Shown one piece after another: positions 50,370-60,938 of a stretch of 64,000 nucleotides of DNA. The first letter of the stretch is position 1. Each line of letters begins with the position of its first letter. Position numbers and translations under genes: made by a program. A model generated the notes under the pieces. It did no database searches and was not told where the DNA came from. It saw only the letters and a list, made by a program, of their open reading frames with translations. The stretch comes from Azolla caroliniana (lineage: Eukaryota; Plantae; Polypodiophyta): assembly GCA_043228905.1 (NCBI GenBank), contig JBHGNT010000020.1, positions 2,418,001 to 2,482,000 on the forward strand, read 5' to 3'.

Positions 50370-53295
50370 CGTTCAACATTGGGTGCGTAATACGACGCGT
50401 AACCTAGTGCGTCGACTGGACGCGTAAGTTAGTACGCACAACTTGGCTGTATCTGTGTGTAAACCGAAAGGCCGTTAGAGAGATATTCCTCATAAGGAAT
50501 AATTTTGGGAGTGTGTGTCGTGGCTCATTTATGAGAGGTCAAGTACTGTCAGTACTTGTGTCAGCCCAATTGTCAGGGCTTGTATAAAATGTGCTCACTT
50601 AGCATAAAGCATGTACAAAGTGTCATTATTTTGAATAGAAGGGAATTTTCTGCTCTCTCTTTGTCTCTCCCTCTCCCTCTCCATCTCTGTGTTTTCTGCG
50701 TTTTACCAAACCGTCGTTCTCCAAACTGTGTACTCTGTGTTTCACACACGTATTCTTTTACATGGTATCAGAGCGCGAGGGTTGAAGTCCTCTGCAGCCG
50801 ACAGAAAAGCTTGCGACAGAGATATAGTTGAGTTGTTTCGGAAAAGATAAGACAACAACATGGACAGAGGAATGGGAAGCTCACTACCGACTGAGAAGCT
50901 TGACAAGAGCAACTACGCATCTTGGTCATACAAGATGCACCAATACTTGCTTGGTCATGGCTACTGGAGTTATGTCGAAGGAGCTAATGATACAACACCT
51001 GAATCGACACACATGGATTTTTCAGCTTGGGAACAAGCGGCAAGTAGAGTTCTCTACTGCTTTGCGTCCTGTGTGAGTGACCAACTATTGAGCTATATTC
51101 AGGATGCCATGACGCCAAAGGACGCGTGGGCGAATCTCAAGAACATTTTCGCCGCTAGCACAACGACCAGGAAGTTGCAGCTCAGACATGAGCTTAGCAA
51201 TGTCCAACAGAAAGATCTGTCTATGGCCGATTACATGGCCCGGATCAAAGAAATCTGTGACTCTCTCGCCTCCTTCAACGTGAACGTTGAGGAAGATGAG
51301 ATGGTGCAGGTTTGTCTTGGTGGGTTAGCGTCAAAGTTTGGAGCGTTCCGAACGACGGTCTGTACGAAATACGCCTTCGTTCTTCGAGCTTCATTCGATG
51401 TTGCTCGTAGAGGAAACCCACACGCTTGCGTCGATGAGTACGCACGCTGACGACAAGATGTTGTACATGGAGGAAGATAGGCCTGTGGTCGTGTTGGACG
51501 AGGCAGATCGGCGTGCAATGGAGGCGACCGACAAGAGCAGAACATGCAGCATAATCAAAATGCCGACAATAGTTCCAGACCATCCACAAGCAGGGGGAGT
51601 CATGGCGGTGCCAGAAGCCGGCAAGAGAGGGCCGTGTCAGAATGTTGGTACTATGGCAAGAAAGGCCACAAGGAGAGCGAGTGCTGGAAAAAGAGAGCCG
51701 ATTCGGACAAAGCTGGACTGAGCGGGAGAGACGCAGGAAGGTGTCAAAAGTCGCACTACGCAGGAAGGCGTCAGATCATCAACCAAGGAATGCAGGTTTG
51801 ATTCACGCATCTTGGTTGCTTCATAGAAGAGGAAGGCAAAGTAATCGTGCAAGGGCGCTGTGAAGGGAGGATGTTTATCCTCGACACTAATCAAGCTGGA
51901 ACCGCATTGTACGCTAAAGGACAAAAGGTTGAATCAGATATCGTCCTGTGGCACAAGCGGTTTGGCCACATAAATTTCCCACGGCTTCGTGAGATGCAAA
52001 TGAAGAACATTGTTTTTGGCTTGCTCAAAATTTCGGGGCCGTAATGGCCAAGTCTGCCAAGCCTGCCAGATGGGAAAACAACACCGACTTCCATTCCCCA
52101 ATGAGTGTAATCGTAGTCGAAATCCGTTGGATTTGATCCATTCGGATGTGTGGGGACTGGTACAAAACGTGAGTCTCAATGGAAGCCGTTACTTTGTAAC
52201 CTTCATCGATGACTTCACTCGACACACGTGGGTATGCACGATCGCGAAGAAGAGCGAAGTCTTCGCATGTTTCCTGAAGGTGGAGAGCCTTGCGGAAAGG
52301 GAAACAAGGCGTAAGATCAAATGCCTACGGTTCGATGGCGGGAAGGAGTACTTCTCCAACCAGTTCACAAGTTATCTATAGAAGGAGGGAGTTTGATGCG
52401 AATTCTCGTGTAGATATATGCCGGAGCAGAACGACGTAGCCGAAAGGAAGAATCAGATGATTGAAGAAGTGACTAGGGCAATGCCTAAAGAGAAGCATAT
52501 GCCGAAATTTTATTGGGCCGAAGCCATGAAGACGACTGTCTACTTCTAGAATCGGACTTCTGCTAATGGAGGAGTGTCGCCACATGAGCTGTATTTCGAG
52601 AAGAAGCCGAACTTGGCACACTTGAGGATTTTCGGTAGCATTGCATATGTGCATGTGCCAAAGGAGAAGAGGAGGAAGTTGGACGCCAAAACCGAAAAGT
52701 GCATCTTAGTCGGCTACTCAGACGAACAGAAGGGGTATAAATGCTATAACCCCCAAACAAAGGAAGTACGTGTAAGTTGAGATGTCGTGTTCGACGAATC
52801 AACTTCGTGGTACTTGCCTTCACCTCCAATACCTCACGACACCACTCCGAATTCTGAGGAAGAAGTCAGCGAATCTGAGATGCCTCTTCATGATGAGGAA
52901 ATCGGAGCTCTTAGAGAGAGTCCGATCTCATTTCGGCTAAGTGGGCCGAATGAGGGGTTGGGCTGAAATGGCCAACCTATTGAAGAGACCGCGAGTAGTG
53001 GAGACTCGACCGTGATGTCCCCGCGTAAAGAACCGAGGAGACGGTTTACGCGCAAGGAGAAGGGCAAGAAGAAAATGCCGAAGTACAATTTCGGCAGCGC
53101 CGAGTCAGTTCGGAGCGAATCTGACATCGAGCTGATCGTAAAGGAACCTCCGCAGAAGAGATCAAAATCGGCCGAAAAGGTCGTGAAATCGGGTAATCAC
53201 GAATTACGCTGTCGTAGTGTAGGTTGCACACTATGTGGAAATTATATTTTTGTCCCTCCGGATAGAGAATGGAGTGCTCGGTGAGAACCGGAAGG

Positions 53296-53415
53296 AGGAA
53301 AAACGGCATACCGGCAAGGAGGAAAACGGCATACCAGCAAGGAGGAAAAACGGCATACCGGCAAGGAGGAAAACGGCATACCGGCAAGGAAGAAAACGGC
53401 ATACCGGCAAGGAAG
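53296..53415 (+). repeat. 23-24-bp tandem repeat AAAACGGCATACCGGCAAGGAGG in U3 (5 units; 4 units in the 3' LTR at about 59823-59920)
   Basis: CGGCATACC units counted directly in both LTRs. Confidence 0.92.
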
Positions 53416-54073
53416 AGCCGGATAAAGAGACGTAAATGTAAAAAAAAAAGGAAATACTCACTACTGCGCAGGGCGTGATTCGAACTCTGCACCTCCACGT
53501 TGACAAACCCCAACCTTACCATTACATTAACTTATCTTAAGTGTTTTAAATATAGATTTAATACGTATAAGACCTTTATTTATGCATACCTTTATTAAAA
53601 GGTAAATCGTGTATTTTTTAATATATGAAAAAGAAAAACACGAGACACTAAAAATAACTCATGCACATCTAGCGTGCATGAGCCCTATACTTAGGAAATA
53701 AAAAAGCATCACATGCACATTTAGTGGACATGAACACTTTTTGTAAAAAAAAAAAGCATGAAGCCATGCTTAGCTCTTCTTTCCTTATATAAGGAGGAGA
53801 GAAATATGTAAAGGGTTGTTGATTATTTGGATTAAGTATTAATCAATACAAAATTTATTCGTGGGATTCACGATTTATACATCTACTTCTCTCTTAACAC
53901 CCTAAGTACCAATTAATATAGTATACACGTGTGATTCACGAGTTTCTTATCTTTCTCTTTGCTATTTACTCATAATTAATCTCTATCTCACGAACTTCTT
54001 TCTCCTAGTCCAAGACCTCTGTGGTTCCCACCCGACTCACGCAACGATCCGGAGCCGAAAGGCACGACACAGT

Positions 54074-59100: not shown

Positions 59101-59749
59101 CATGACCGGATAAGCACCGGTAATGCCAACGGAAACCGCAATCGCGACATGGACAATACTACCATGGAAGGAAGAGATGAGCCGGGAAGAACTACTAGCG
59201 GTCCGGATGCGACAACTGGAGGGAAGACCGAAAGATGTAGCGGAAGCGTCACGCCGACAACAAGAAGCACGGTTCCGGAACAAAAGCCGGTTCGACACAA
59301 AGCACCGACTACGACCGAGGAGGATTGAAGAAGGAGATTGGGTGATCGTCTATGATAGTAGCTTGGACCATCAACATACAACGATGCGGAAATTCGCGAA
59401 AAGGTGGTTCGGGCCGTACGAGGTTCGGAAGGTCTTCGACAACGGGACGTACCGACTGTCCGAGTTGGATGGAACAATACTACGAGTGCCTATAGCCGGG
59501 AAGCGGGTGAAGATTTTCAAGAAGCGGACCGACGACAAACCTTATGTGATCCAAGTCGAGGCCAACAACGAGGAGCAATTGGACGAAGACCACAATGATG
59601 CGGGAAGCGAAGAAAGTGGATTACAACTCATAGTCGACATAAGGGGAGAATCGGAGGAAGCTTCGGATGAAGACAGATACGAAGAATCAAGAACTTCGGC
59701 ACATACCGGAGGATGTGCGGGTTTGGAGGGGGCGAGTGTCGTAGTGTAG
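56138..59749 (+). pseudogene. pol (RT-RNase H-integrase) in the -1 frame, with two premature stops
   Basis: RT LPQG and PFLDD. RNase H VDTS and ETDC. Integrase HHCC, MVDIV, IADRGE, KIERGH and GPY. TGA at 58427 and TAA at 59111 are compatible with CGA and CAA by C-to-T change. Confidence 0.92.
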
Positions 59750-60938
59750 GTTGCACACTATGTGGAAATTATATTTTTGTCCCTCCGGATAGAGAATGGA
59801 GTGCTCGGTGAGAACCGGAAGGAGGAAAAACGGCATACCGGCAAGGAGGAAAACGGCATACCGGCAAGGAGGAAAAACGGCATACCGGCAAGGAAGAAAA
59901 CGGCATACCGGCAAGGAAGAGCCGGATAAAGAGACGTAAATGTAAAAAAAAAAGGAAATACTCACTACTACGCAGGGCGTGATTCGAACTCTGCACCTCC
60001 ACGTTGACAAACCCCAACCTTACCATTACATTAACTTATCTTAAGTGTTTTAAATATAGATTTAATACGTATAAGACCTTTATTTATGCATACCTTTATT
60101 AAAAGGTAAATCGTGTATTTTTTAATATATGAAAAAGAAAAACACGAGACACTAAAAATAACTCATGCACATCTAGCGTGCATGAGCCCTATACTTAGGA
60201 AATAAAAAAGCATCACATGCACATTTAGTGGACATGAACACTTTTTGTAAAAAAAAAAAAGCATGAAGCCATGCTTAGCTCTTCTTTCCTTATATAAGGA
60301 GGAGAGAAATATGTAAAGGGTTGTTGATTATTTGGATTAAGTATTAATCAATACAAAATTTATTCGTGGGATTCACGATTTATACATCTACTTCTCTCTT
60401 AACACCCTAAGTACCAATTAATATAGTATACTCGTGTGATTCACGAGTTTCTTATCTTTCTCTTTGCTATTTACTCATAATTAATCTCTATCTCACGAAC
60501 TTCTTTCTCCTAGTCCAAGACCTCTGTGGTTCCCACCCGACTCACGCAACGATCGGAGCCGAAAGGCACGACAACGCTGATCTACCCACCTGAAGAACCT
60601 CGTGAAGAGATACGGGTACAATGAATACATGGCGCACCATTATGCGTACATGACGCGAGTGGCAGAAGTGCGTGAGTGGGGGAGCTACGCAGAAGCGGCG
60701 AAAGACGCAAATTGGCGTGCCGCAATGGAGGAAGAGATGCGCGCTTTAACGCAGAATGAGACGTGGGACCTGGTTGACGCACCAAAGGGTGTGAAGCCGA
60801 TTGGATGTAGGTGGGTGTACAAGGTCAAGTACAACACTGACAACTCTGTCAACCACCATAAGGCCCGTTTAGTTGCAAAAGGCTACACGCAGAAGCACGA
60901 CGTGGACTACGATGAGACCTTCACGCCTGTCGCGAAGC

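What the first reader, a model, noticed from the sequence alone, without database searches (positions are those of the whole stretch)
53206..60577. Family-P integrations make 4-bp TSDs centred on CpG
Seen: flanks are ACGC/ACGC (53206 and 60574), ACGC/ACGC (14010 and 14772), ACGC/GCGC (29624 and 30626), ATGT/ACGT (19805 and 20911; CpG decay on one side), and single flanks CCGT (1385) and CCGG (7657). The one exception, CCAT/CCAC (9959 and 13832), could be a decayed CCGC. Six of seven sites are therefore NCGN, and all lie inside other repeats. Families T and C in this window make 5-bp TSDs without this bias (ATAGG, ACAAT, CCTCC). Established: most plant LTR elements give 5-bp TSDs with weak sequence preference. 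Inference: a chromodomain-less integrase that reads CpG, perhaps methyl-CpG, and so steers insertions into existing TE DNA. The sample is small.
Basis: partly seen in the sequence, partly recalled or inferred. Interest (0 to 1): 0.8.

Follow-up and report, generated by a model that had tools for sequence, protein, structure and literature searches.

The report
Moss-type retrotransposon inserting at CpG sites
This jumping gene really does insert at CG dinucleotides and duplicates four bases of its target, but that habit is already published for the Phygy group of moss retrotransposons, to which it likely belongs, and it likely comes from the integrase reading DNA sequence and shape rather than methylation.

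Summary
Real, but already described. One of the seven sites (19805/20911) is another LTR family, so family P gives 5 of 6 NCGN (p about 4e-7). Outside the window, 35 of 43 unique junctions have a central CG (1.6 expected). Contigs of the empty site carry one ACGC, which proves the 4-bp duplication. The element is a non-chromovirus Ty3/gypsy with a tRNA-Trp-type primer site and no chromodomain or archaeal RNase H. That matches Phygy, for which Neumann et al. 2019 (PMC6317226) report '4 bp (100%) (NCGN)' in 186 elements. The defining tree could not be run. The methyl-CpG idea is untested and not needed: fly ZAM elements pick CGCG in a genome without 5mC, no methyl-reader domain was found, and TE DNA here holds 3-4 times more CG per kb than the gene island, so plain CG choice already favours TEs. 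Added detail: the motif is VCGB, mostly ACGT, like foamy virus VYRB. Three look-ups in this scan's notes found no earlier report.

The parts
53206..53209 (+). 5' TSD copy ACGC
   Evidence: single copy at the empty site
53210..54069 (+). 5' LTR (860 bp, TG...CA)
   Evidence: 3 substitutions in 836 columns against the 3' LTR plus one 23-bp length difference: a young insertion
54074..54091 (+). primer binding site, tRNA-Trp type, after a 4-nt spacer
   Evidence: its complement equals an 18-nt plant small RNA mapped to gypsy PBS and is one base off the 3' end of mouse tRNA-Trp-CCA-4-1
54108..56147 (+). gag-protease ORF (CCHC-type knuckle, DUF4100)
   Evidence: relatives
56024..59749 (+). pol frame RT-RNase H-integrase, overlapping the end of gag-pro in another frame; broken by two in-frame stops (58427-58429, 59111-59113); integrase ends in an SH3-like domain and an acidic tail, no chromodomain
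59717..59736 (+). polypurine tract
   Evidence: also at 623-642 and 10752-10771
59737..60573 (+). 3' LTR (837 bp)
60574..60577 (+). 3' TSD copy ACGC; the target is a copia pol between its SH3 and RT parts
643..1388 (+). family-P 3' LTR (643-1384) of an element cut by the window start, with flank CCGT (1385-1388)
4648..7660 (-). truncated family-P copy: 5' LTR 7656-6980, PBS, gag; 5' flank CCGG (7657-7660), just upstream of a copia gag
9959..13835 (-). family-P deletion derivative (LTRs 13831-13040 and 10751-9963, only the start of gag), TSD GTGG/ATGG on the element strand: the non-CG exception, in copia pol
   Evidence: (32 substitutions in 789 columns)
14010..14775 (+). family-P solo LTR 14014-14771 with TSD ACGC/ACGC, in a copia RT
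29624..30629 (+). family-P solo LTR 29628-30625 (internal duplication) with flanks ACGC/GCGC, in a tandem-like repeat
19805..20914 (-). solo LTR of a different family (not P), flanks ATGT/ACGT, in a copia protease

Best explanation
Family P is a non-chromovirus Ty3/gypsy LTR retrotransposon, likely of the Phygy lineage, whose insertions duplicate four bases centred on CG, likely because its integrase bends the target at a central pyrimidine-purine step and reads the bases there, with no need for methylation. Shown: 4-bp duplication, CG centre, T avoided at the joining position (VCGB, ACGT commonest), no chromodomain or known methyl-reader domain, integrase fold closest to foamy-virus and Ty3 integrases. 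Inferred: the intasome cuts with a 4-bp stagger and unstacks the central step as foamy virus does; the long, conserved loop between the first two strands of the C-terminal domain would reach the widened major groove (where Arg329 acts in foamy virus) and would pick CG over TA, TG and CA. Because TE DNA here is 3-4 times richer in CG than the gene island, and insertions into genes are likely purged, copies pile up in other TEs as a by-product. Most TG/CA-centred flanks would be later deamination of CG.
For: Window: 5 of 6 NCGN. Independent junctions: 35 of 43 CG, 1.6 expected, p 1e-42; control 6 of 49 non-family matches. Majority loose ends behind the LTR end start ACGT in 86 contigs of X4 and 19 of X14. 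Empty site with one ACGC. Base 5' of the CG on both strands: A 41, C 13, G 13, T 3 of 70, 23 T expected, which matches the foamy-virus consensus VYRB and the avoidance of T at the joining site (Serrao 2015, passages). TG/CA flanks (6 of 41) match the decay of the LTR's own CpGs (25 of 148; Fisher p 0.82), and 6 of 8 non-CG flanks are TG/CA (p 2e-4); TA, also a flexible step, is 1 of 43. Phygy features match. Integrase model (relative P0160, pLDDT 72.7): best matches PFV intasomes (Foldseek E 1.3e-13; Z 19.3, rmsd 1.6 A over 135 core residues). Loop nearly invariant in most relatives that have it. ZAM-group elements prefer CGCG (review passage) in Drosophila, which lacks genomic 5mC (passage). 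CG density.
Against: No biochemical test. The loop's contact with DNA is an analogy: its part of the model is weak (pLDDT about 58) and no residue was mapped to PFV Arg329. Phygy membership rests on features, not on a tree with reference sequences (file too large to read); the element (7364 bp) is just under the published Phygy range of 7656-9968. The 43 junctions come from one capped scan (120 rows) of short-read metagenome contigs, selected by an exact LTR-end pattern, so they are not a genome-wide sample; the one solo LTR with both ends (L007) has unequal flanks (ACGG/GCGT). Nothing here measures methylation, so a methyl-CpG preference is not excluded. At least 21 of 43 flanks hit window DNA, mostly TE coding regions, with no genome background to compare.
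Confidence: 0.7

Rival explanations
1. The integrase prefers symmetrically methylated CpG (direct contact with the 5-methyl groups, or easier bending of mCpG), which would steer it into silenced TE DNA without a chromodomain.
For: [quoted passage not shown]
Against: No MBD, SRA or chromodomain hit in 17 Pol proteins at E up to 0.1; CG density alone predicts TE enrichment; decay can follow insertion, as it does inside the LTR; CGCG targeting exists in a genome without 5mC. If a methyl group were the key, TG (methyl on T) might be a good target, yet TG and CA are only at background level (6 seen, 6.1 expected); this last point is inference.
Confidence: 0.15
2. Two layers: sequence read-out picks the CG, and a separate chromatin tether (for example the acidic tail or a host partner) brings the intasome to heterochromatin.
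For: An acidic tail (25-70% D+E) follows the SH3-like domain in 12 of the 13 aligned Pol proteins that reach it; two window insertions hit the same part of copia pol; Phygy is enriched at centromeres in Apopellia.
Against: The tail is variable in length and predicted disordered (pLDDT under 50); no partner is known; regional bias was not shown to exceed what CG density and selection give.
Confidence: 0.12
3. The CG is an artefact of small numbers or of misplaced LTR ends.
For: Only 2 perfect paired TSDs in the window; one site was of another family.
Against: LTR ends are fixed by PBS and PPT neighbours; empty site; 35 of 43 outside junctions; published for 186 Phygy elements.
Confidence: 0.03

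Closest known systems
Phygy lineage (non-chromovirus Ty3/gypsy, defined from Physcomitrella patens; Neumann et al. 2019, PMC6317226)
   Same: 4-bp TSD, NCGN preference, tRNA-Trp primer site, no extra domain or extra ORF, coding region filling the internal part.
   Different: 7364 bp against a published range of 7656-9968; host not known here; no direct sequence comparison was possible. The finer motif VCGB with ACGT commonest is not in the passages or table that I read.
Selgy (Selaginella) and TatI lineages, same paper
   Same: Non-chromoviruses with 4-bp TSDs; TatI also uses tRNA-Trp.
   Different: Selgy uses tRNA-Ala and is about 5 kb; TatI carries an archaeal RNase H, not found here; neither is listed with NCGN.
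Drosophila ZAM subgroup errantiviruses (ZAM, Tirant)
   Same: Ty3/gypsy-type integrases with a CG-centred target, CGCG (PMC5408687, passage); ZAM TSD 4 bp (PMC3276498, table passage).
   Different: Insect elements with env; host lacks 5mC; they want CGCG, while P takes VCGB.
Prototype foamy virus intasome (a works-like comparison, not a family)
   Same: 4-bp stagger, central YR step, T avoided at the joining site, consensus VYRB; best structural match of the integrase model.
   Different: PFV accepts any YR and its preference is weak; P takes CG in 35 of 43. About 20% sequence identity.
Plant chromoviruses (family T in this window, likely Tcn1)
   Same: Ty3/gypsy, same neighbourhood.
   Different: Chromodomain, 5-bp TSD, 22-24% Pol identity to P.

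Membership tests
Phygy | RT, RH and INT cluster with the REXdb Phygy references in a tree | not testable with these tools
   The reference FASTA and element table are too large to read; no homologue found carries a lineage label; named homologues are from Riccia and Adiantum.
Phygy | 4-bp TSD | tested here: met
Phygy | NCGN target motif | tested here: met
   5 of 6 in the window; 35 of 43 outside
Phygy | tRNA-Trp primer binding site (81% of Phygy) | tested here: met
   3 window copies; 10 of 56 outside ends are followed by it, whole or in part; matched to a tRNA-Trp 3' end from papers, not to the host's own tRNA gene
Phygy | No chromodomain, no archaeal RNase H, no extra ORF; coding region fills the internal part | tested here: met
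   (one RVT_3 match at E 0.063 in 1 of 17 proteins, below cut-off)
Phygy | Length 7656-9968 bp (descriptive; the authors call size of little weight) | tested here: inconclusive
   7364 bp, 292 bp under the range, one element measured
Chromovirus (Tcn1, Galadriel) | Chromodomain on the integrase | tested here: not met
   the same scan finds it in family T
TatI | Archaeal RNase H domain | tested here: not met
Selgy | tRNA-Ala primer site, about 5 kb | tested here: not met
Methyl-CpG reader | Known reader domain, or measured preference for 5mC | tested here: inconclusive
   No reader domain by Pfam; binding and methylation cannot be measured here

The most novel reading that the evidence does not exclude
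Phygy-type integrases read methylated CpG directly through their conserved C-terminal loop: a retrotransposon integrase that targets silenced DNA by a DNA mark instead of a chromodomain, hiding new copies inside old TEs across mosses, liverworts and ferns.
Probability: 0.15. Interest if true: 0.75.

Novelty: already known. Interest (0 to 1): 0.22.

Why it matters
As it stands it confirms a published lineage trait, likely in another host, and sharpens it (VCGB, ACGT commonest, T avoided at the joining site, empty-site proof). Phygy is the one plant LTR lineage that Neumann et al. 2019 list with a sequence preference, and my searches (listings, plus passages of the two papers above) found no test of how it works. 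So it is a handy model for how an integrase gains sequence specificity. It would matter much more if the preference proved to be for methylated CpG: that would be a route to heterochromatin targeting without a chromodomain.

Tried and rejected
No whole genome is held, so the genome-wide logo could not be made. Relatives in viral contigs: none among 56 candidates; in genome contigs 3 short contigs without LTR ends, likely contaminants: no TSD data from other hosts. First structure (whole Pol, pLDDT 52.7) too poor to use. Protein atlas gave no answer for the ORF beside 1385. Rfam found nothing near a gathering score in the LTR. A homologous copia copy (L041) at the exception site has another sequence and cannot tell whether the target was CG. 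Rows dropped before the count of 43: of 120 loci, 64 failed the upstream-LTR filter (among them L010 and L086, part-LTR or chimeric, both NCGN, left in the control), 10 were 5' LTRs followed by the PBS, 2 were duplicates, and L069 proved to be a 5' LTR with a decayed PBS. No preference was seen beyond the TSD at +5 to +12. Rejected: counting 19809-20910 as family P; reading the exception as doubly decayed CCGC; using flank CpG o/e as a methylation proxy (range 0.11-1.53, confounded by TE age). Look-ups in the scan's notes by words, place and sequence gave no earlier report of this trait.
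Full report
1. Observation. A scan for the LTR ends, primer site and polypurine tract gives 8 family-P LTRs, that is 6 insertions: 53210-60573 (LTR pair), 13831-9963 (pair, minus strand), solo LTRs 14014-14771 and 29628-30625, and single LTRs at 643-1384 and 7656-6980. Five of the six have a central CG; with CG at 0.036 of non-P window DNA this has p 3.7e-7. 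The seventh site, 19809-20910, has no blastn similarity to P LTRs (best E 0.08) and scores 6.3 bits on a P-LTR profile, against 409-757 for members and 5.3 for a chromovirus LTR (100 local shuffles reached at most -2.1, so a remote kinship is possible). It is another family.

2. Beyond the window. No genome is held. 56 had LTR sequence upstream; 10 of these were 5' LTRs followed by the primer site, 2 were duplicates, and L069 proved to be a 5' LTR followed by gag. Of the 43 left, 35 have CG at flank positions 2-3, 3 TG, 3 CA, 1 TA, 1 AA; 1.6 CG are expected from the flanks (p 1e-42). Of 49 distinct matches that failed the filter, 6 have CG. In sequencing-run contigs the majority loose end behind the LTR starts ACGT (86 contigs in X4, 19 in X14; only part of that table is shown); on a second stretch 23 contigs in X4 and 14 in X10 match ACG and then differ. 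Five X4 contigs carry the left flank 53176-53205 directly before 60574: the empty target with one ACGC, so the duplication is 4 bp. These data are short-read contigs picked by an exact pattern, one flank each; the only solo LTR with both ends, L007, has unequal flanks, both NCGN.

3. The finer motif. Taking both strands of the 35 CG sites, the base 5' of CG is A 41, C 13, G 13, T 3 of 70, where 17, 18, 12 and 23 are expected. The motif is VCGB and ACGT is the commonest 4-mer (14 of 44). TG/CA flanks (6 of 41) are as frequent as decayed CpGs inside the same LTR ends (25 of 148, Fisher p 0.82), and make up 6 of the 8 non-CG flanks (p 2e-4), so most are likely later deamination. The window's exception is different: both copies have TG, and double decay has a chance near 0.015, so it was likely a true non-CG insertion.

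4. What the element is. 53210-60573 is 7364 bp with LTRs of 860 and 837 bp that differ by 3 substitutions in 836 columns. After a 4-nt spacer comes an 18-nt primer site whose complement equals a plant small RNA mapped to gypsy primer sites (PMC5846777, table passage) and is one base off mouse tRNA-Trp-CCA-4-1 (PMC7555719, table passage). A gag-protease ORF is overlapped by a pol frame with RT, RNase H and integrase, broken by two stops. Pfam finds no chromodomain, archaeal RNase H or methyl-reader domain in the window copy or in 17 full Pol relatives, while it finds the chromodomain of family T. Among the 120 listed Pol homologues the named ones are from the liverwort Riccia (up to about 60% over the full query) and the fern Adiantum, so the host is likely a non-seed plant.

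5. Target context. Four P insertions and the non-P solo LTR sit in copia coding DNA, one in a tandem-like repeat; the flank at 1385 is unclassified. But TE DNA holds 45-71 CG per kb and the gene island at 33000-45000 only 16, so under plain CG choice 0 of 6 insertions in the island has a chance of 0.49. At least 21 of 43 outside flanks have a tblastx hit to window DNA, mostly TE coding regions, with no background to set against. Steering by methylation is therefore not shown.

6. Mechanism. Serrao et al. 2015 (PMC4422553, abstract and passages) give the foamy-virus target as VYRB for its 4-bp TSD, bent and unstacked at the central YR step, with T disfavoured at the joining site by a clash of its methyl group, and Arg329 of the C-terminal domain contacting bases. 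Family P fits VYRB, narrowed to CG. A model of a relative's integrase (P0160, 66% identical to family member P0123; pLDDT 72.7) matches PFV intasomes best (Foldseek E 1.3e-13; Z 19.3, rmsd 1.6 A over 135 core residues), then Ty3. The loop between the first two strands of the C-terminal domain is long and nearly invariant in most relatives that have it, and an acidic tail follows. I infer that this loop reads the CG in the widened groove; this step is an analogy and was not mapped residue by residue. That CG-centred targeting needs no methylation is shown by precedent: the ZAM subgroup prefers CGCG (PMC5408687, passage) in Drosophila, which lacks 5mC (PMC10538959, passage). I put sequence and shape read-out at 0.70, direct methyl-CpG reading at 0.15, sequence read-out plus a chromatin tether at 0.12, artefact at 0.03.

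7. What is known. Neumann et al. [quoted passage not shown] Jedlicka et al. 2019 (PMC6911290, passages) find 4 bp the commonest TSD in Phygy, GC-rich centres in 4-bp TSDs, and Phygy nested in Tcn1 in moss. Phygy is also reported in a liverwort, enriched at centromeres (PMC12885004, passages). Family P meets every tested Phygy feature except length (292 bp under). The defining tree could not be built: Additional files 1 and 3 are too large to read, and they may also hold the finer motif. PMC7466625 (passages) does not name Phygy. Searches (listings only, apart from the papers named) showed no test of methylation dependence.

8. Verdict. Novelty: already known. Interest 0.22.

Noticed in passing
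window 19809-20910 (-): Solo LTR of a second family with a 4-bp, CG-centred flank (ATGT/ACGT) in a copia protease; weak profile likeness to P LTRs, so possibly a distant Phygy-type family.
   Followed up: partly
window about 53470-53525; also 20680-20786 and 61261-61359: A short segment in P LTRs looks like an antisense tRNA-type internal promoter box (recalled likeness) and the same part of the profile scores weakly on the non-P solo LTR and on a chromovirus LTR. Rfam gave nothing near a gathering score.
   Followed up: partly
window 9959/13832 and 53206/60574: Two independent P insertions fall in the same part of copia pol, between the SH3 and RT regions.
   Followed up: no
window 9963-13831 and 1-311: Non-autonomous P derivative with only the start of gag and an unrelated 1.6-kb internal part; the element cut by the window start shares that internal part at 72%.
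   Followed up: no
window 54070-54073; L009, L014, L058 and others: A 4-nt spacer starting CA lies between the LTR end and the primer site in all full examples seen.
   Followed up: no
window 56024-56147: pol overlaps the end of gag-protease in the -1 frame, with a run of T and A at the gag stop: a candidate ribosomal frameshift site, not tested.
   Followed up: no
window 33000-45000: AT-rich host gene island (GC 36%, CpG o/e 0.48) with exons of at least two genes, one with a weak DCD-domain match at 39795-40406.
   Followed up: partly
window 1385-4707 and 47136-48736: Unclassified GAG-like-looking region with a 319-aa ORF without Pfam match; its right part (3244-4707) is about 80% like 47145-48528, a 1.6-kb element with a 5-bp TSD, and like the solo LTR at 16146-16578.
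   Followed up: no
L121, L122, L123: Pol relatives (33-57% identity) on short contigs of three bacterial assemblies, likely eukaryotic contamination.
   Followed up: no
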